Shown: positions 1,443 through 63,410 of the stretch, piece after piece
Layout: the number at the start of each line of letters is the position of its first letter
Numbering within the stretch: position 1 is the stretch's first letter
Assembly: GCA_023267215.1 (NCBI GenBank)
Contig: JAHFNS010000001.1
Span: 174,710 to 238,709 of the forward strand
DNA: 64,000 nucleotides
Direction: 5' to 3'
From: Candidatus Nomurabacteria bacterium
GTDB taxonomy: Bacteria > Patescibacteriota > Minisyncoccia > Phycocordibacterales > UBA9973
Made by a program: the position numbers and the translations under genes
The notes under the pieces: model-generated
The model's database searches: none
What the model was told of the DNA's origin: nothing
What the model saw: the letters and a program-made list of their open reading frames with translations, nothing else

Positions 1443-2792
1443 TTAAAATCCTTCTTCTGTTAATCTTTCATCTATTCTATTCATATCTCGTGGAAACATA
1501 CAAGCTTCACGAATATTTTTTAGACCTAAAAGTTGCATAGTGATACGTTCAGCTCCAAAAGCAAAACCTCCTTCAGGCGGAACTCCATATTTGAAAGCTT
1601 CAAGAAACATTTTTATTTTAGCCGGATCCATTTTCCAAATTTTTACATGCTCCATGAGCTGGTCATAATCATTGATTCTGCGTCCACCAGAGAGCCATTC
1701 TACTCCACGACAAATGAGATCCACGCCTTCATTGTATTCTGGCTCTTCTTTACTTGGATAAATGTAAAATGGTTTTTTTAGTGTTGGATATCCGTAAATA
1801 AATACGAAATCCGAACCAGTCTCTTCTTTTATTATTTCACAAATTTGTCTTTCATCTTCTCCGTTTGTATCTTTTTCTCCACGAACATCACGACCAAATT
1901 TTTCAAAAATCTTTTGTTGAACTTCTCTTAAAGAAAGTGTTGGCGTTTTGTCTGTCATTGTCGGAAGAGTAACCCCTAACAATTTCAAATGTTCTTTGTT
2001 TTTTGTCTCTACTTGTTTCAAAATGTATCTTACTGTTTCTTCAGCCATATCTCGCACATCTGTCCATGAATCAATGAAGGCCATCTCTGCATCAAGTGAA
2101 ACCACTTCCGTCAAATGTCTAGTGGTTGAAGATGGCTCTGCGCGGAAAACTTTATTCACAGAAAAAACTCTTTCAAATGCTGACATCACGATTTGTTTGT
2201 AAAGTTGAGGAGATTGAGAAAGAAAAGCTTTTTTATCAAAATAATCAATCTTAAAAACTTCTGCTCCTCCTTCGGCAACAGCTGGAGATATACTAGGAGC
2301 TTGAAATTCAAAAAACATATTCTTTTTCATAAATTCCCTGAAAGCATCTATTACTGTTTCCTGTATTTTGAAAATTGCTTGTATTTTTGGTTGTCTTAAA
2401 ACTAACGCTCTATTATCAAGTTCTGCGGTCAACTCTAGATTATACCCACCAAGAGACATATCAAAAGGAAGAGGTGCTGCTTCGGATAAAATTTCAATAT
2501 TTAAAATTTCAAGTTCTATGTCGCCATTTAATACATCTGCTTTCACATTTCTCTCTGGACGCTTGTTTACTAAACCAGTGATCTTGAGAACCCATTCGAG
2601 TCTGATTTCTTTTGATTTTTCAATAACTTCCACATGAGAAGGTAATGCAACTACTTGCACTTTACCTGTCATATCTCGCATATCAAAAAATACCATTTTG
2701 CCTTGATCACGACGGACATCTACCCAGCCAGCTATGATGACTTCTTTGCCAACATTGTCTTTCAAATCTTTAATATAAATCCTATTTTTCAT
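1443..2792 (-). CDS. aspS: Aspartyl-tRNA synthetase, class IIb, short archaeal/non-discriminating type (AsnRS not fully excluded)
   Basis: 449 aa; N-terminal OB anticodon-binding domain; motif 2 FRAEPSSTTRHLTE; motif 3 GGFAFGAERI; GGRRINDYDQL resembles the AspRS-type GGxRIH segment rather than AsnRS GGSQREER. Confidence 0.8.
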   Translation of the reverse strand: MKNRIYIKDLKDNVGKEVIIAGWVDVRRDQGKMVFFDMRDMTGKVQVVALPSHVEVIEKSKEIRLEWVLKITGLVNKRPERNVKADVLNGDIELEILNIEILSEAAPLPFDMSLGGYNLELTAELDNRALVLRQPKIQAIFKIQETVIDAFREFMKKNMFFEFQAPSISPAVAEGGAEVFKIDYFDKKAFLSQSPQLYKQIVMSAFERVFSVNKVFRAEPSSTTRHLTEVVSLDAEMAFIDSWTDVRDMAEETVRYILKQVETKNKEHLKLLGVTLPTMTDKTPTLSLREVQQKIFEKFGRDVRGEKDTNGEDERQICEIIKEETGSDFVFIYGYPTLKKPFYIYPSKEEPEYNEGVDLICRGVEWLSGGRRINDYDQLMEHVKIWKMDPAKIKMFLEAFKYGVPPEGGFAFGAERITMQLLGLKNIREACMFPRDMNRIDERLTEEGF

Positions 2793-2820
2793 ATAAATAT
2801 TCTATCATATATTGAAAATA

Positions 2821-2856
2821 AAAAAAGCGGAGAATATGATGGGTCCCCGCTTTCTT
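2821..2856 (-). terminator. Intrinsic terminator (minus-strand stem AAAGCGGGGA...TCTCCGCTTT followed by a T-run), 28 nt upstream of the aspS start
   Basis: GC hairpin plus a run of 7 T on the minus strand, read directly from the sequence. Confidence 0.6.
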
Positions 2857-3300
2857 AATTTACCCTTTCCTTTATTAAGAAGGGTTTTAAAATTTATCAA
2901 TAATTTTTAAAAGCGGATTGCTACGTGGCTCTGCAGGAAGCCACTTTCCACTTATTTCTCTTATGCATCGGCTTTTTCCCCAATCAGGGTTAACACCGAT
3001 AAATTTGTTTTTTAAAGTCAGGAATTTTCTTCCTGATTTTGTGGCTTCTGCAAGCCACTTTAAACAATTCTCTAGGTCGCCACTGGCGACTTGGGAATCA
3101 CAAGAATTAGACATAAGAACTCCTTATAAAATTGATAAAATATTTAAAACAGTAAGGAACTATTACCCTCAGACCCAAATTTCATTTATTATTTGGGACT
3201 GGTGTGTATGTTTCTAGAAAACTGAGAGCACACACATCAGACTCAAACGCAAAACTGACTTCGATTTTATTCGGAGCCAGTTTTGTTTTTGTATTATTTC
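2857..3300 (-). ncRNA. GC-rich structured island upstream of aspS: candidate cis-regulatory leader or small structured RNA; the alternative reading is a 75-aa ORF at 2887..3114
   Basis: Local GC is about 45% against ~30% background. Two related hairpins occur (GTGGCTTGCAGAAGCCAC and GTGGCTTCCTGCAGAGCCAC), plus a GTCGCCACTGGCGAC hairpin and a GGTGTGTATG...CACACACATCAG hairpin. An upstream CCGCTTTT could pair with the terminator 5' arm as an antiterminator alternative. I could not match it to the RNase P, tmRNA, SRP or T-box consensus by eye. Confidence 0.3.
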
Positions 3301-3447
3301 AATTTTTCCAATTTATACAAAAGCAAATGGCTCCTTCTTAATGAGGGTGAGAATAAAGAGAACATTAATTTGTATATTTCTTAATTTCATAACTATATAA
3401 ACATATTAGCATAAAAAATAGAAACAACAACACACCTGTGGAAAACT

Positions 3448-4125
3448 CTAGACTTTTTCTACATTGAGCACTCTTCCATTTTTATCTAAAGAAACACAAA
3501 ATCCTTCTAAAAAATCGTAAGGCTTGATTTTCCAATCATAGTTTTTTATAAAAATATTTGCATTTTCAATCTTCATGTCATTTAAAAATAAAATTTCAAA
3601 AAATTTCATTACAAAAGCATGACTAATACAGACAGAACCATTGGGAATTTTTTTAAGTTTCTTGAAAAAAGAATCTATCCTCGCTATAACATCATTTACT
3701 TTCTCCTCATTTTTATCTTCCACAATACTTTTTACCACATTTTCACGCAATAAATTTACATTGAAATCTTTATTTTCTGGTGTAACAAAATTAGCTACTG
3801 AAAATTTAATTTCCTTTAATTCTGGTAAAATTTTTATGGGTAAATCAAAAAGCTTAGCTGTCTGTACGCAACGAGACACTGGCGAAGATAGGATATATTT
3901 AATTTTAAAATTTTTCTTTAAATTCTTAACTCTTTTAATTGTTTTTTCTGTATTCGTATCTAACAATGGATCATTTAACTGTAAACCATTTAAATCAAAA
4001 CTAGAAATCAAATCCATCCCTGGTATTAGGTCTAGATATATTGCTGGTCTTAAAAATAGTATTTTTTTCATAATTTTAATAAAGAAGCAGAGAAAATTTT
4101 CTCTGCTTAATAATTTAATAAACAA
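3448..4125 (-). CDS. Hypothetical protein with weak histidine-phosphatase-superfamily resemblance (degenerate RHG motif)
   Basis: 225 aa; SSPVSRCVQTAKLF resembles SSPLxRAxQTA and ISHAFVMKFF resembles the second His motif, but the N-terminal R-H-G is LRPA (no catalytic His). Confidence 0.4.
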   Translation of the reverse strand: MFIKLLSRENFLCFFIKIMKKILFLRPAIYLDLIPGMDLISSFDLNGLQLNDPLLDTNTEKTIKRVKNLKKNFKIKYILSSPVSRCVQTAKLFDLPIKILPELKEIKFSVANFVTPENKDFNVNLLRENVVKSIVEDKNEEKVNDVIARIDSFFKKLKKIPNGSVCISHAFVMKFFEILFLNDMKIENANIFIKNYDWKIKPYDFLEGFCVSLDKNGRVLNVEKV

Positions 4126-4849: not shown

Positions 4850-4881
4850 TCTGCTATCATGTACTAGTACATGATAGCAGA
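4850..4881. promoter_or_regulatory. Perfect 32-bp palindrome TCTGCTATCATGTACTAGTACATGATAGCAGA; candidate operator
   Basis: Perfect inverted repeat with a core GTACTAGTAC that resembles trp-operator CTAG half-sites. It lies between the TrpR-like gene and the 4115..4786 operon and has no flanking T-run, so it is unlikely to be a terminator. Confidence 0.45.
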
Positions 4882-4945
4882 AGAAAAAAGTAATGCAAGT
4901 GCATTTTATATAAAAACTGTGGATAACCCACAATCTCTTTTTTTA

Positions 4946-5233
4946 TTATTTACTTAATTTTTTTAACACTAAATGAAAACCCCCATTTTTATTACGAAGT
5001 TCGCGAGACCCTCTAGTGACCGTGCTTATACCAATACCTAAATCCCCTGCTATGTCTCTATGTTTCTCGTTTTTGTTAAGCCTCTTCACTATTTGCCATC
5101 TTATACAAATTTCATCAAATTCTGCAGGTGTCAAAATATCTCTCAAAAATTCAAATATTAATTCCTTATCTGTAGAAATTTTTGAAAAAACTTCTATAAT
5201 CTCCTTTTTGTATTGTGCGGAATTTTTTTTCAT
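4946..5233 (-). CDS. TrpR-like DNA-binding protein, YerC/YecD family
   Basis: 95 aa; RWQIVKRL...DIAGDLGIGISTVTRGSRELR matches the TrpR/YerC helix-turn-helix core. Confidence 0.7.
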   Translation of the reverse strand: MKKNSAQYKKEIIEVFSKISTDKELIFEFLRDILTPAEFDEICIRWQIVKRLNKNEKHRDIAGDLGIGISTVTRGSRELRNKNGGFHLVLKKLSK

Positions 5234-5236
5234 TTT

Positions 5237-6244
5237 TTAAAAATAATCAATCTTGATAGCTTTTTTAACTTTAGCCATTGTCTTTTTAGCTTCTTCTCTT
5301 GCCTTTTTTGTCCCATCTTCTAAAATCTTCATAACCTCTTCTGGGTGCTTTTCGAATTCTTTTCTTTTTTCACGAATTGGTTTAATTAATTTTTCTAAAA
5401 CCTCTATCAATCTTTTCTTAATAACAACATCTCCTAAACCACCCTTTTCATATTGCTTTTTTAATTCTAGAACTTCTTCTTTATTTTCATCAAAAATATC
5501 TAAATAAGTAAAGACAATATTTCCTTCTACTTTACCTTTATCTTCCACATGAATGTGGTTCGGGTCAGTATACATATTCATAACTTTTTTTGAAATTTCA
5601 TCATAACTATCTGAAAGATAAATACCATTATTAAGAGATTTACCCATTTTAGAATTTCCATCAGTGCCAATTAACCTCGGGATATCTCCCACTAAATGCT
5701 TTACACGTTTAAATGTTTCTCCGTAGAAACGATTGAAGTCGTCCACAATTTCATTCACTTGTTCAATAACTGGTAATTGATCTTCACCGACTGGAATTAA
5801 ATTTGATTCTGCAAAAAGAATATCCGCTGCTTGAGAAACAGGATAAGTTAAAAATCCAGCGGGAACATCTTCTCCATACCCTTTGTCTTTCATTTCACTT
5901 TTTACAGTCGGGTTCCTCTTCAATCGAGCAAGTGTCACCAAATTTAAAAACAAAACTGTAAGCTCTGCAATTTCTGGAATTTCTGATTGAATAAACATAA
6001 TAGTTTTTTTAGGGTCAAGACCACAAGCCAGATTATCAAGGGCAACTTCTAAAACATTTGCTCTAACTTTTTCTGGATTTTGTGCATTATCGGTAAGTGC
6101 TTGAATATCCGCAACCATATAAAAAGATTTATCGGCTTCATCTTGAAGTTTAACTCTATTTCTTATAGACCCGACAAAATGACCCAAATGGAGTTTACCC
6201 GTTGGGCGATCACCCGTGAGCACTATTTTTTCATCTTTTACCAT
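5237..6244 (-). CDS. trpS: Tryptophanyl-tRNA synthetase
   Basis: 335 aa; class I HIGH motif (TGDRPTGKLHLGHFVG) and KMSKS motif (KMGKS); size typical of TrpRS. Confidence 0.9.
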   Translation of the reverse strand: MVKDEKIVLTGDRPTGKLHLGHFVGSIRNRVKLQDEADKSFYMVADIQALTDNAQNPEKVRANVLEVALDNLACGLDPKKTIMFIQSEIPEIAELTVLFLNLVTLARLKRNPTVKSEMKDKGYGEDVPAGFLTYPVSQAADILFAESNLIPVGEDQLPVIEQVNEIVDDFNRFYGETFKRVKHLVGDIPRLIGTDGNSKMGKSLNNGIYLSDSYDEISKKVMNMYTDPNHIHVEDKGKVEGNIVFTYLDIFDENKEEVLELKKQYEKGGLGDVVIKKRLIEVLEKLIKPIREKRKEFEKHPEEVMKILEDGTKKAREEAKKTMAKVKKAIKIDYF

Positions 6245-55059: not shown

Positions 55060-55142
55060 TGCGCCGGGTAGGATTCGAACCTACGTAGCCCGAAGGCGAC
55101 AGATTTACAGTCTGTTGTAATTGACCACTCTACCACCGACGC
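55060..55142 (-). tRNA. tRNA-Tyr (anticodon GTA), long variable arm, no encoded CCA
   Basis: Manual fold: acceptor GCGTCGG/CCGGCGC with one G-U pair, anticodon loop CTGTAAA, variable arm TCGCCTTCGGGCTACG, T-loop GGTTCGAATCC. Confidence 0.85.
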
Positions 55143-62882: not shown

Positions 62883-62964
62883 TGCCCGGAGTGGGAATCG
62901 AACCCACATCCCTTGCGAGACACGATTTTAAGTCGTGCGCGTATACCAGTTCCGCCATCCGGGC
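62883..62964 (-). tRNA. tRNA-Leu (anticodon TAA), no encoded CCA
   Basis: Manual fold: acceptor GCCCGGA/TCCGGGC, anticodon loop CTTAAAA, long variable arm, T-loop GGGTTCGATTCCC. Confidence 0.85.
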
Positions 62965-62980
62965 ATTTCTTTTCGTAGTG

Positions 62981-63052
62981 AGGCCTGGGGCGGAATTGAA
63001 CCGCCGTATAGAGATTTTGCAGATCTCTGCCTTACCACTTGGCTACCAGGCC
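62981..63052 (-). tRNA. tRNA-Cys (anticodon GCA)
   Basis: Manual fold: acceptor GGCCTGG/CCAGGCC, anticodon loop CTGCAAA, T-loop GGTTCAATTCC. Confidence 0.8.
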
Positions 63053-63124
63053 ATTAAGTTAATATAACATTTTTAAAAAAATTTTCAAAATAAAGAAAAT
63101 GTGTTAAACTTATATTGTTCTAAT

Positions 63125-63197
63125 CCGCCCTTAGCTCAGCTGGTAGAGCAGATCCCTCTTAAGGATAAGGTCGAAGGTTCGATCCCTTCAGGGCGGA
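63125..63197 (+). tRNA. tRNA-Lys (anticodon CTT) with an unusual C1-G72 first pair
   Basis: Manual fold: acceptor CCGCCCT/AGGGCGG, D arm GCTC-AGCTGGTA-GAGC, anticodon loop CTCTTAA, T arm GAAGG-TTCGATC-CCTTC. Confidence 0.75.
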
Positions 63198-63326
63198 CAA
63201 TTTAAAAAGTTTATGTTATAAAGTTTTTAAATTGTCCGAGACGGAGCATGACGGTGCGAGTCCGGGTCGGGGAAGTTTTTAGTAAAAAACTATTCCTGAC
63301 GACAAGTACAAATAGAGTTTATATAT

Positions 63327-63410
63327 GCCGGGGTGGCGAAATTGGCAGACGCACTTGCCTTAGGAGCAAGCGAGAGTAATCTCATGGGAGTTCAAGTCTC
63401 CCCTCCGGCA
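63327..63410 (+). tRNA. tRNA-Leu (anticodon TAG), no encoded CCA
   Basis: Manual fold: acceptor GCCGGGG/CTCCGGC, anticodon loop CTTAGGA, long variable arm, T-loop GAGTTCAAGTCTC. Confidence 0.85.

What the first reader, a model, noticed from the sequence alone, without database searches (positions are those of the whole stretch)
2793..3300. GC-rich structured island with an intrinsic terminator immediately upstream of aspS: candidate attenuator/riboswitch-like leader or unrecognised ncRNA
The roughly 400 nt upstream of aspS on the minus strand is about 45% GC in a ~30% GC genome. It contains two near-duplicate hairpins (GTGGCTTGCAGAAGCCAC and GTGGCTTCCTGCAGAGCCAC) that could also pair with each other, a GTCGCCACTGGCGAC hairpin, a GT/AC-repeat hairpin, and a clean terminator (AAAGCGGGGA...TCTCCGCTTT plus T7) ending 28 nt before the aspS ATG. 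An upstream CCGCTTTT can alternatively pair with the terminator's 5' arm, which gives antiterminator logic.

This geometry is typical of T-box or attenuation leaders of aminoacyl-tRNA synthetase genes. However, I could not find a convincing T-box consensus (AANNNGGGUGGNACCGCG) or a match to the RNase P, tmRNA or SRP motifs.

An alternative reading is a 75-aa ORF (2887..3114) preceded by a perfect AAGGAG. That is odd in a genome whose genes mostly lack Shine-Dalgarno sequences.
Basis: partly seen in the sequence, partly recalled or inferred. Interest (0 to 1): 0.55.

Follow-up and report, generated by a model that had tools for sequence, protein, structure and literature searches.

The report
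Leader-peptide attenuator plus small gene
The flagged stretch is not a leader of aspS: it is a separate small gene (75 codons) with its own terminator, switched by a previously uncatalogued leader-peptide transcription attenuator just upstream, while aspS starts from its own promoter as a leaderless mRNA.

Summary
The window comes from a Nomurabacteria-like CPR bacterium. The hairpins, the terminator, the AAGGAG and the 75-codon ORF are all present, but the "45% GC island" is not (33.5% against 32.3% for the window).

The flagged terminator (2853..2820) ends a separate upstream unit. aspS has an extended -10 (TGATAGAAT) 6 nt before its ATG. The same arrangement occurs in 36 of 79 relatives, against about 0.5 expected by chance. 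There is no T-box here, although some relatives have one.

The real regulatory element lies at 3390..3244, partly outside the flagged interval. It has a near-leaderless 25-codon leader ORF, and mutually exclusive antiterminator and terminator helices. Both helices are backed by compensatory changes in 29 homologous leaders (14 of 18 and 12 of 16 pairs). Most homologues carry Phe-codon runs. One precedes prephenate dehydratase and one precedes phenylalanine hydroxylase. The family has no Rfam match.

The element controls ORF75. ORF75 is a divergent member of an uncharacterised small-protein family that lay behind this leader in every case examined, and whose other members show dN/dS of 0.09-0.22.

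The window's leader lacks the Phe run, so its signal is unknown. The ORF75 mRNA is unusually structured (z = -5.1), which is unexplained.

The parts
3434..3445 (-). Conserved upstream element TTTTCCACAGGT (DnaA-box-like T[TA]TCCACAG). It lies directly after the stop codon of the His_Phos gene and just upstream of the -35.
   Evidence: The only match in the window. It is invariant in the window-type leaders and recurs upstream of other promoters in related loci. Its function was not tested.
3403..3430 (-). Promoter of the leader unit: -35 TTGTTG (3430..3425), a 16-nt spacer, and an extended -10 TGCTAATAT (3411..3403). This leaves 12 nt to the leader ATG, so the predicted 5' UTR is about 5 nt.
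   Evidence: Read from the sequence. It aligns with TG-n-TAnAAT in the 5 other window-type leaders. The main-type leaders have their -10 ending 6-9 nt before an ATG or GTG. It is predicted only.
3313..3390 (-). Leader ORF of 25 codons plus stop: MKLRNIQINVLFILTLIKKEPFAFV*.
   Evidence: A homologous short ORF was found at the same position for all 29 leader starts tabulated; a few are cut short or ambiguous (L002, L023 copy a, L088). Most carry Phe runs of 2-6 codons. 23 of 27 C bases in the pyrimidine tracts fall on codon position 3. The window copy has only one Phe at the homologous position.
3355..3376 (-). Region 1 (leader codons about 5-12). It pairs with region 2 when no ribosome is present.
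   Evidence: The minimum-energy fold of 3390..3236 forms the 1:2 helix plus the terminator. In the 6-sequence window-type alignment the 1:2 helix shows a compensatory AU-to-GC change. Duplex z is below -2 in 16 of 29 leaders.
3314..3336 (-). Region 2: the last 7 leader codons plus the stop codon. It is the 5' strand of the antiterminator.
   Evidence: Inverted repeat I4. The 2:3 duplex is -21.5 to -22.7 kcal/mol in the window. Across 29 leaders 87.3% of cells are paired, 14 of 18 pairs have changes on both sides, and 0 of 500 shuffles reach the observed covariation.
3271..3294 (-). Region 3: the 3' strand of the antiterminator, which is also the 5' arm of the attenuator terminator (AAAACTGGCTCCGA).
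   Evidence: It is shared by the two mutually exclusive helices (inverted repeats I2 and I4).
3244..3264 (-). Region 4: the 3' arm of the attenuator terminator (TCGAAGTCAG) plus the U-tract TTTTGCGTTTG.
   Evidence: The 3:4 duplex is -17.1 to -17.6 kcal/mol. Across 29 leaders 87.7% of cells are paired, 12 of 16 pairs have changes on both sides, and 0 of 500 shuffles reach the observed covariation.
3199..3240 (-).
   Evidence: -13.2 kcal/mol. It is predicted in the window-type consensus with one compensatory and three one-sided changes. The main-type leaders lack it. Its role is unknown.
3174..3197 (-). Hairpin D (CCCAAAT...ATTTGGG).
   Evidence: -6.3 kcal/mol. The arms co-vary among window-type leaders: CCTCAA/TTGAGG, CCTCAAA/TTTGAGG and CCTTAAAT/ATTTAAGG (sequences, read by eye). 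Its role is unknown.
3120..3125 (-). Shine-Dalgarno AAGGAG, 5 nt before the ORF75 ATG.
   Evidence: Small ORFs behind homologous leaders mostly also carry strong SD sequences. Only 3 of 46 long ORFs in the window have an SD-like motif.
2887..3114 (-). ORF75, a 75-aa small protein.
   Evidence: A profile built without ORF75 ranks it first of 914 fragments, E = 0.0066, over 23 residues. The family has 47 cluster representatives. Members show dN/dS of 0.09-0.22. All members examined lie behind the same leader. ORF75 lacks the Pro, CGC and W.H..C motifs. The mRNA folding z-score is -5.1.
2909..2916 (-). CCGCTTTT, inside ORF75 codons 67-69.
   Evidence: The helix forms in the minimum-energy fold of the nascent RNA. 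The full-length alternative fold is -37.1 kcal/mol against -42.2 for the terminator fold. A partner this good appears in 12 of 5000 shuffles, but in 0 of 12 relatives.
2820..2853 (-). Intrinsic terminator T2 of the leader-ORF75 unit: a 10-bp stem, a 10-nt loop and T7.
   Evidence: Equivalent terminators followed by a promoter precede aspS in many relatives.
2799..2807 (-). aspS promoter: an extended -10 TGATAGAAT ending 6 nt before the ATG. The predicted transcription start is at or next to the A of the ATG, giving a leaderless aspS mRNA.
   Evidence: TGnTAnWWT ends 4-10 nt before the start codon in 36 of 79 upstream regions (78 related loci plus the window), against about 0.5 expected. Window-wide, 26 of 46 long ORFs have TAnnnT in that position and 11 have the extended form, against 0 in a control placement.
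1443..2792 (-). aspS, an archaeal-type non-discriminating aspartyl-tRNA synthetase. It is not part of the attenuator unit.
   Evidence: Pfam tRNA-synt_2 at 1e-78. NCBIfam NF003483, aspartate--tRNA(Asn) ligase, 456.9 bits.

Best explanation
Between the His_Phos gene and aspS lies an independent transcription unit on the minus strand. It runs in this order: promoter (3430..3403), a near-leaderless 25-codon leader ORF (3390..3313), a four-region ribosome-mediated transcription attenuator (regions 1-4, 3376..3244), a structured 5' UTR (hairpins C and D), a Shine-Dalgarno, ORF75 (3114..2887), and the intrinsic terminator T2 (2853..2820).

Proposed mechanism (inferred from anatomy and comparison; no expression data):
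- If the ribosome reads the leader ORF through to its stop, it covers region 2. Regions 3 and 4 then form the terminator, and transcription ends at about 3244.
- If no ribosome is present, regions 1 and 2 pair. The terminator again forms.
- If the ribosome stalls over region 1 (codons about 8-15), region 2 pairs with region 3. This is the antiterminator, and RNA polymerase reads on into ORF75.

In most homologous leaders the stall site is a run of Phe codons, so the family senses charged tRNA-Phe. The window's subtype has lost the run (VLFILTL), so its signal is uncertain.

ORF75 needs a Shine-Dalgarno because it is an internal cistron in a genome whose genes are otherwise mostly leaderless.

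aspS is transcribed separately. Its extended -10 promoter lies between T2 and the ATG, and its mRNA is leaderless.
For: Anatomy: the minimum-energy fold of the window leader gives the 1:2 helix plus the terminator. The antiterminator and terminator share 3294..3271.

Homology: nhmmer finds one copy in the window (E = 6.5e-13) and 28 more in related loci, plus 4 further copies.

Covariation in the 29-sequence alignment A6:
- Antiterminator: 87.3% of cells paired, 14 of 18 pairs with compensatory changes. Slid controls give 29-52% paired.
- Terminator: 87.7% of cells paired, 12 of 16 pairs compensatory.
- Duplex z-scores: mean -5.4 (29 of 29 below -2) for the antiterminator, and -5.1 (28 of 29) for the terminator.

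Translation of the leader:
- The ORF is kept despite indels.
- Phe runs are in frame, with 23 of 27 C bases at codon position 3.
- The -10 ends 6-12 nt before the start codon.

Amino-acid link:
- The L041 leader precedes prephenate dehydratase (Pfam PDT, 1.1e-35).
- In L088 a leader encoding FYFY precedes a Biopterin_H hydroxylase.
- Short ORFs encoding NYY, with terminator-like hairpins, precede two more Biopterin_H genes.

ORF75 as a gene: profile hit; the family is always behind this leader; dN/dS 0.09-0.22; strong SD.

Independence of aspS.
Against: - There are no transcript, transcription-start or ribosome data. Everything is inferred from sequence.
- The window's leader peptide has only one Phe at the homologous site and no codon run. 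A defining feature of classical attenuators is therefore missing in this copy, and the copy could be constitutive or respond to something else.
- The 1:2 helix is only moderately supported (16 of 29 leaders).
- ORF75 matches the family over only 23 residues at E = 0.0066 and has lost the Cys motif. No variant copies were found for a direct dN/dS test; the only other copies recovered encode the identical 75-aa protein, and the one whose DNA was read (L087) also has identical neighbouring proteins.
- The ORF75 mRNA is unusually structured (z = -5.1). The protein-coding reading does not explain this.
- Read-through of T2 into aspS cannot be excluded.
Confidence: 0.75

Rival explanations
1. Terminator T2 (2853..2820) is an attenuator for aspS. 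The upstream CCGCTTTT (2916..2909) pairs with the 5' arm of T2 as an antiterminator. Transcripts from the upstream unit then read into aspS under some condition, for example when ORF75 is not being translated.
For: - The alternative helix forms in the minimum-energy fold of the nascent RNA before the 3' arm of T2 is made.
- A partner this good appears in only 12 of 5000 shuffles.
- It is listed as inverted repeat I11.
- T2 ends only 27 nt before the aspS ATG.
Against: - None of the 12 relatives with a detectable terminator before aspS has an equivalent partner.
- The full-length terminator fold is 5 kcal/mol more stable.
- aspS has a well-placed extended -10 promoter, conserved in position in 36 of 79 upstream regions.
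- There is no T-box or any other known leader.
- Relatives that do regulate aspS through RNA use a recognisable T-box instead.
Confidence: 0.12
2. The ORF75 region is primarily a structured non-coding RNA, or a decaying pseudogene whose RNA has taken on a role. The 75-codon ORF is not translated into a functional protein.
For: - Folding z-score of -5.1, with five perfect local hairpins.
- Loss of the family's Pro, CGC and W.H..C motifs.
- The only exact-word hit in the protein database is ORF75 itself.
- Homologous ORFs behind this leader are also unusually structured, with z of -2.4 to -3.8.
Against: - The reading frame is intact.
- It has an optimal AAGGAG-N5-ATG in a genome where SD motifs are rare.
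- The N-terminal motif is conserved through synonymous codon changes.
- Other family members are under strong purifying selection as proteins, and one gives a confident AlphaFold model (mean pLDDT 82).
- There is no Rfam match on either strand.
Confidence: 0.15
3. The conserved leader is not a ribosome-sensing attenuator. It would instead be a ligand- or protein-binding riboswitch-like RNA, or its short ORF would encode a functional micropeptide or toxin, with the Phe runs incidental to a U-rich tract.
For: - The N- and C-terminal parts of the leader peptide are conserved (MNKNIQ......RLIFAL).
- The window subtype lacks a codon run.
- Most of the controlled genes are not amino-acid biosynthesis genes.
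Against: - The conserved peptide ends coincide with RNA regions 1 and 2, which explains their conservation.
- The C bases in the tract are in frame.
- The cognate enzyme genes (PDT with Phe codons; Biopterin_H with Tyr codons) sit behind such leaders.
- The stop codon always lies inside the antiterminator strand, as the ribosome model requires.
Confidence: 0.08

Closest known systems
Classical Phe leader-peptide attenuators of Gammaproteobacteria (pheL-pheA and the pheST leader; Rfam RF01859 Phe_leader; PMC3082878, PMC1183508)
   Same: - A short leader ORF with a run of Phe codons (in most family members).
- A stop codon inside the antiterminator strand.
- Mutually exclusive antiterminator and intrinsic terminator.
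- A prephenate dehydratase gene downstream in at least one member (L041).
   Different: - No sequence or structure similarity: RF01859 scores 18.9 bits against a gathering score of 55 in the window, and gives no hit on the L041 leader.
- The leader ORF is leaderless or nearly so and often starts with GTG.
- Most controlled genes are tiny proteins of unknown function.
- The window copy has no Phe run.
- The host is a CPR bacterium, a group for which I found no report of attenuators.
Polycysteine leaderless short-ORF attenuators of mycobacteria (Canestrari et al., bioRxiv 10.1101/834739)
   Same: - Leaderless short ORFs starting with AUG or GUG, with a codon run for one amino acid.
- They act as ribosome-stalling sensors, and many copies form a ribosome-directed regulon.
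- One related leader here (L016) even carries CCC (Cys-Cys-Cys) in place of the Phe run.
   Different: - The mycobacterial elements work by unmasking the ribosome-binding site (translational control, per the abstract). Here a canonical intrinsic terminator with a U-tract is the output.
- Different amino acid, different phylum, no sequence relationship.
T-box leaders (Rfam RF00230)
   Same: - They sit upstream of aminoacyl-tRNA synthetase genes and have a terminator/antiterminator pair.
- At least 7 relatives carry one directly upstream of aspS, with AGTAGGGTGGNACCGCG. In L020 it scores 52.4 bits, E = 6.7e-11.
   Different: - The window has no T-box sequence and no RF00230 match at E <= 10.
- Its aspS has a promoter where the T-box would be.
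Classical attenuators predicted upstream of aminoacyl-tRNA synthetase genes in Actinobacteria (trpS and leuS in Streptomyces; Seliverstov et al. 2005, PMC1262725)
   Same: Leader peptide plus terminator, found in the neighbourhood of synthetase genes and outside the Proteobacteria.
   Different: There the synthetase itself is the regulated gene. Here the attenuator unit ends at its own terminator, and the adjacent synthetase (aspS) has a separate promoter.

Membership tests
T-box leader (RF00230) | Conserved T-box sequence AANNNGGGUGGNACCGCG in the antiterminator bulge | tested here: not met
   A search for TGGNACCNCG in the 700 nt upstream of aspS finds nothing in the window, but finds TGGNACCGCG in 7 relatives.
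T-box leader (RF00230) | Covariance-model match (Stem I, specifier loop, antiterminator) | tested here: not met
   RF00230 gives no hit at E <= 10 in 2600..3600. The same search gives 52.4 bits on the L020 aspS leader.
Ribosome-mediated (leader-peptide) transcription attenuator | Short translated ORF at the start of the leader transcript | tested here: inconclusive
   The window has a 25-codon ORF at 3390..3313. A homologous short ORF at a fixed position was found for all 29 leader starts tabulated; a few are cut short or ambiguous (L002, L023 copy a, L088). The codon-position signature is present. Translation itself was not observed.
Ribosome-mediated (leader-peptide) transcription attenuator | Mutually exclusive antiterminator and intrinsic terminator, with the leader stop codon inside the antiterminator 5' strand | tested here: met
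   Both helices are supported by compensatory changes, and they share window positions 3294..3271.
Ribosome-mediated (leader-peptide) transcription attenuator | Run of regulatory codons for one amino acid at the stall site | tested here: not met
   The window leader reads ...NVLFILTLI..., with 3 Phe in total and no run of two or more. Most homologues have FF to FFFFFF. The feature is met for the family but not for this copy.
Ribosome-mediated (leader-peptide) transcription attenuator | Regulated gene belongs to the metabolism of the sensed amino acid | tested here: not met
   In the window the regulated gene is ORF75, of unknown function. The feature is met in L041 (PDT) and in L088, L026 and L013 (Biopterin_H with Tyr-containing leaders).
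Rfam Phe_leader (RF01859) | Covariance-model score at or above the gathering threshold | tested here: not met
   18.9 bits against a threshold of 55, E = 2.6, at 3249..3343 on the minus strand.
Small-protein family EWF..A..SGR..LTVP..LPCGC.R..W.H..C (unnamed, no Pfam entry) | N-terminal W...A.KSGR..LT motif | tested here: met
   A profile built without ORF75 aligns residues 19-41. ORF75 is the top hit of 914 window fragments, E = 0.0066.
Small-protein family EWF..A..SGR..LTVP..LPCGC.R..W.H..C (unnamed, no Pfam entry) | Nearly invariant P27, C35-G36, R39, W56 and H58 (numbering of P0002) | tested here: not met
   ORF75 has LTLK instead of LTVP, has no CGC, and has no H after the second Trp.
Small-protein family EWF..A..SGR..LTVP..LPCGC.R..W.H..C (unnamed, no Pfam entry) | Gene lies directly downstream of the conserved leader | tested here: met
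   The window, L003, L007, L029, L088, L089, L090 and L091-L094 all have the leader upstream.
Intrinsic (Rho-independent) terminator | GC-rich hairpin immediately followed by a U-tract | tested here: met
   T2 (2853..2820) has a 10-bp stem plus T7. The attenuator terminator (3284..3244) is followed by UUUUGCGUUUG. The simple scanner missed T2 because its loop is 10 nt.
Leaderless mRNA gene (aspS) | -10 element ending about 6-8 nt before the start codon, with no Shine-Dalgarno | tested here: met
   TGATAGAAT at 2807..2799 with the ATG at 2792. The arrangement is seen in 36 of 79 upstream regions (78 related loci plus the window) and is common across the window. The transcription start was not measured.

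The most novel reading that the evidence does not exclude
Paceibacteria (CPR) possess a ribosome-directed regulon that has not been described. It would consist of a family of leaderless short-ORF transcription attenuators carrying Phe codons, with Tyr and possibly Cys variants. These attenuators control a few aromatic amino-acid enzymes and, above all, a fast-evolving family of about 100-aa Cys-motif proteins of unknown fold whose mRNAs are themselves unusually structured. On this reading the proteins are a starvation-response effector in organisms that cannot make their own amino acids. The window carries a derived subtype that has lost the Phe run and may sense a different translational cue.
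Probability: 0.45. Interest if true: 0.65.

Novelty: new variant of a known kind. Interest (0 to 1): 0.5.

Why it matters
Ribosome-mediated attenuation is a textbook mechanism, but it is known mainly from amino-acid biosynthetic operons of Proteobacteria and a few other phyla. This case differs in three ways.
- It is a well-supported attenuator family with no Rfam match, found in CPR bacteria. These are tiny, largely unculturable symbionts with almost no biosynthesis and mostly leaderless genes.
- It mostly controls small proteins of unknown function rather than enzymes.
- It offers a direct sequence-level handle on how such organisms sense amino-acid supply, and it points to a protein family worth studying.

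There is also a practical lesson for annotation in leaderless genomes. A terminator a few dozen bases before a start codon does not imply an attenuator for that gene. The promoter can lie between the two.

Tried and rejected
**Searches that found nothing relevant**
- Known RNA families. Rfam at gathering thresholds over the whole window finds only 5 tRNAs. In E-value mode over 2600..3600 it finds nothing credible: no T-box, RNase P, tmRNA, SRP or 6S. It finds nothing on 16 related loci.
- Direct conservation of the flagged DNA. blastn of the 655-nt upstream region against 80 orthologous loci finds only L020, and only for the leader part. The exact-word protein search with ORF75 returns only itself.
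- Literature. There are no papers combining CPR, Patescibacteria or Parcubacteria with leader peptide, attenuator or T-box in the searchable library.

**Ideas tested and rejected**
- GC island or foreign DNA. Rejected: the composition is ordinary.
- The two near-duplicate hairpins as a dispersed palindromic repeat element. Rejected: there are no other copies in the window, and their spacing is in frame.
- A conserved antiterminator for T2. No relative has one.

**Tests I could not run**
- I could not obtain a variant copy of ORF75 for a direct dN/dS test. The only other copies recovered encode the identical 75-aa protein; only one (L087) had readable DNA, and its neighbouring proteins are identical too.
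Full report
**Source and setting.** The AspRS encoded at 1443..2792 (minus strand) is an archaeal-type aspartate--tRNA(Asn) ligase. It is 77-87% identical to proteins of 80 metagenome-assembled genomes labelled Candidatus Nomurabacteria, Paceibacterota or Patescibacteria. The window therefore comes from a CPR bacterium.

On the minus strand the local gene order is:
- a class I aminoacyl-tRNA synthetase related to TrpRS (5237..6244)
- a TrpR-like gene (4946..5233)
- a 223-aa ORF
- a His_Phos_1 gene (3448..4125)
- the region in question
- aspS
- pepA

**Observation check.** The terminator and the AAGGAG-ORF are also present.

The GC claim fails. 2793..3192 is 33.5% GC against 32.3% for the window, and 37% of 400-nt windows are as high. 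The ORF alone is 38.2% GC, which is similar to aspS at 35.3%.

The "structured" claim holds. The ORF folds with z = -5.1 and the terminator region with z = -3.4.

**aspS is not downstream of an attenuator.** I aligned the last 130 nt before the aspS start in 79 upstream regions (78 related loci plus the window). A recurrent layout appears: terminator hairpin, T-run, TGnTAnAAT, 6-9 nt, ATG.
- The extended -10 motif ends 4-10 nt before the start codon in 36 of 79 regions, where about 0.5 would be expected by chance.
- The window has TGATAGAAT (2807..2799) 6 nt before the ATG.
- Across the window, 26 of 46 long ORFs have TAnnnT in that position and 11 have the extended form, against 0 in a control placement. 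Only 3 have an SD-like motif.

aspS is therefore predicted to be leaderless. The flagged terminator (T2, 2853..2820) belongs to whatever lies upstream of it.

A minority of relatives (at least 7) instead carry a genuine T-box directly before aspS. In L020 it scores 52.4 bits, E = 6.7e-11, with a truncated Stem I. The window has none.

**The upstream unit and its leader.** L020 shares about 260 nt with window 3445..3189. L007, L002 and others share a related element. Alignment (A1) and nhmmer define a leader family with 29 distinct instances in the sampled loci. A metagenome scan added six window-type loci (four distinct leader sequences among them), and four more instances came from later look-ups. 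The 64-kb window holds exactly one copy (3389..3242, E = 6.5e-13).

Each instance has the same parts:
- A promoter whose -10 ends 6-12 nt before an ATG or GTG.
- A 20-30-codon ORF.
- A region 2, formed by the last codons of the ORF plus its stop, that can pair with region 3.
- A region 3 that is also the 5' arm of an intrinsic terminator (with region 4 and a U-tract).

In the window:
- The 2:3 duplex is -21.5 kcal/mol and the 3:4 duplex is -17.1 kcal/mol.
- The minimum-energy fold is the 1:2 helix plus the terminator.
- The repeat finder independently lists both helices (I4 and I2).

Across the 29-sequence alignment A6:
- The antiterminator is paired in 87.3% of cells, with compensatory changes at 14 of 18 pairs.
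- The terminator is paired in 87.7% of cells, with compensatory changes at 12 of 16 pairs.
- In both cases 0 of 500 shuffles reach the observed covariation, and slid controls give only 29-59% paired.
- Per-sequence duplex z-scores are below -2 in 29 of 29 (2:3) and 28 of 29 (3:4). The 1:2 helix is weaker, at 16 of 29.

Two mutually exclusive, co-varying helices that share a strand, with a leader stop codon inside the shared switch, are the signature of ribosome-mediated attenuation. This rests on established knowledge of the trp, phe and his attenuators (PMC1183508).

**What is sensed.** Leader peptides of the main type read MNKNIQANSYFFFSF...LRRLIFAL, with Phe runs of 2-6 codons. Of the C bases inside the pyrimidine tract, 23 of 27 fall on codon position 3, as expected for TTY codons.

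Links to amino-acid metabolism:
- The L041 leader (FFF..FFF) precedes a prephenate dehydratase (Pfam PDT, 1.1e-35).
- In L088 a leader encoding GFYFYG precedes a Biopterin_H (aromatic amino-acid hydroxylase) gene, and a second leader precedes a small-family gene.
- In L026 and L013, short ORFs encoding NYY, followed by terminator-like hairpins, precede Biopterin_H genes.

This codon-to-pathway correspondence supports sensing of Phe (and Tyr) tRNA charging.

The window belongs to a subtype (with L020 and L081-L086) whose peptides are conserved: MK(S)YRNIQIN..F....IKKE(L/P)(L/F)F.... They carry only 0-2 Phe codons at the homologous site, and the window reads NVLFILTLI. The switch architecture is intact in this subtype, and its 1:2 helix shows a compensatory change. 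Its cue, however, cannot be read from the sequence.

**What is controlled.** Behind the leaders lie mostly small ORFs with strong SD sequences, from several unrelated families. ORF75 shares W..A.KSGR.FLT with the ORFs behind the L003, L007 and L029 leaders.

Profile searches expand this to a family of 47 cluster representatives, typically 60-150 aa. The consensus is EWF..A..SGR..LTVP..IT.LPCGC.R...F.I...W.H...C. There is no Pfam match. A confident AlphaFold model (pLDDT 82) has no PDB neighbour.

Every member whose DNA I could read sits directly behind this leader: L088, L089 and L090 and L091-L094. Pairwise dN/dS among six members is 0.09-0.22 wherever dS is not saturated, so the family is protein-coding.

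A profile built without ORF75 ranks ORF75 first of 914 six-frame fragments of the window. The match is only over residues 19-41, at E = 0.0066. ORF75 lacks the Pro, CGC and W.H..C positions. It is therefore a divergent, possibly remodelled member.

The KSGR codons differ synonymously between the window (AAA TCA GGA AGA), L007 (AAA AGT GGA CGG) and L003 (AAG TCC GGC AGG).

The "odd" SD is explained. In a leaderless genome, an internal cistron on a roughly 280-nt leader needs one.

**Loose ends.**
- ORF75 and most homologous ORFs fold much better than codon-shuffled controls (z = -5.1; others -2.4 to -3.8). Background coding pieces give a mean of 0.0 with sd 1.4. I have no explanation for this.
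- Hairpins C and D (3240..3174) are conserved only in the window subtype.
It has no counterpart in 12 relatives. I keep it as a low-probability rival.

**Comparison with known systems.** Mechanistically this works like the pheL-pheA attenuator. It is not a member of Rfam Phe_leader (18.9 bits against a threshold of 55) or of any other Rfam family.

Leaderless codon-run short ORFs acting as amino-acid sensors are known from mycobacteria (polycysteine; 10.1101/834739). Per that paper's abstract they act on translation. The elements here end in an intrinsic terminator.

I found no report of attenuators in CPR bacteria in the searchable literature. That is absence of evidence only.

**Verdict.** The finding as interpreted (an aspS leader or ncRNA) is mostly wrong. 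Following it up uncovers a real, comparatively well-supported regulatory RNA family and a new small-protein family. Interest is moderate (0.5). Novelty: a new variant of a known kind.

Noticed in passing
L020:3791-3985 (also L013, L015, L025, L033, L034, L042, L065, about 90-135 nt before aspS): Some relatives regulate aspS with a T-box that has a canonical AGTAGGGTGGNACCGCG box and a terminator, but a drastically shortened Stem I. RF00230 scores only 52.4 bits (E = 6.7e-11), below the gathering score of 93, so standard Rfam annotation misses it.
   Followed up: partly
window 4851-4927 (minus strand); also L050:466, L059:1400, L066:3130, L074:3079, L081:5001, L020:2950-2990: A promoter-like region lies downstream of the TrpR-like gene. 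It has GTTATCCACAG (a perfect DnaA-box-like 9-mer) at 4927..4917, TTGCAT at 4898..4893, and a 30-nt perfect palindrome CTGCTATCATGTACTAGTACATGATAGCAG at 4880..4851. The core of the palindrome, GTACTAGTAC, resembles the E. coli trp operator. This is probably a TrpR-family operator in front of the 223-aa ORF.
   Followed up: partly
window 3434-3445 and 4917-4927; many loci: T[TA]TCCACAG, which matches the DnaA-box consensus TTATCCACA, recurs immediately upstream of the -35 of several promoters in these genomes. It precedes both the attenuator leaders and the palindrome-bearing promoters. It may be a transcription-factor site or a promoter element.
   Followed up: partly
L026:7846-7995 and L013:6680-6870; L088:428-550: Biopterin_H (aromatic amino-acid hydroxylase) genes are preceded by short ORFs containing Tyr codons (NYY, or FYFY in L088), followed by GC-rich terminator-like hairpins. 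These look like Tyr-type attenuators for an enzyme that makes Tyr from Phe.
   Followed up: partly
L016:353-500: A homologue of the leader carries Cys-Cys-Cys (TGT TGT TGT) where the others have the Phe run, and has a weak terminator (3:4 duplex -6.0 kcal/mol). It lies upstream of a 41-aa ORF and rplU (L21). It may be a Cys-sensing or decayed variant.
   Followed up: no
L006:499-646 and 973-1121; L023:3101-3238 and 3693-3832; L088:428-549 and 1251-1362: Leader-plus-small-gene modules occur in tandem, two per locus, in some genomes. Different, unrelated small ORFs sit behind near-identical leaders, which suggests the cargo is exchanged behind a conserved switch.
   Followed up: partly
window, whole (46 ORFs of at least 150 aa): The genome appears largely leaderless. 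26 of 46 long ORFs have a TAnnnT -10-like hexamer ending 4-10 nt before the ATG, and 11 have the TG extension (0 in a control placement). Only 3 have an SD-like motif.
   Followed up: partly
window 2887-3114; L003, L007, L088-L090, L020:3472-3705: The small ORFs controlled by the attenuator have mRNAs that fold far better than codon-shuffled controls (z = -2.4 to -5.1), even though the protein family is under purifying selection. This hints at an additional RNA-level constraint.
   Followed up: partly
L082:5171-6499, L085, L081, L086: In window-type metagenome loci, the synthetase gene downstream of the leader-small-ORF unit is only 37-47% identical to the window's AspRS. It is probably AsnRS or another class IIb enzyme. 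The slot 'trpS - leader - small ORF - class IIb synthetase - pepA' is therefore conserved, while the synthetase differs.
   Followed up: no
window 55060-55142 and 62883-63410: Five tRNA genes. Four of them are clustered on both strands at 62.9-63.4 kb (Rfam).
   Followed up: no
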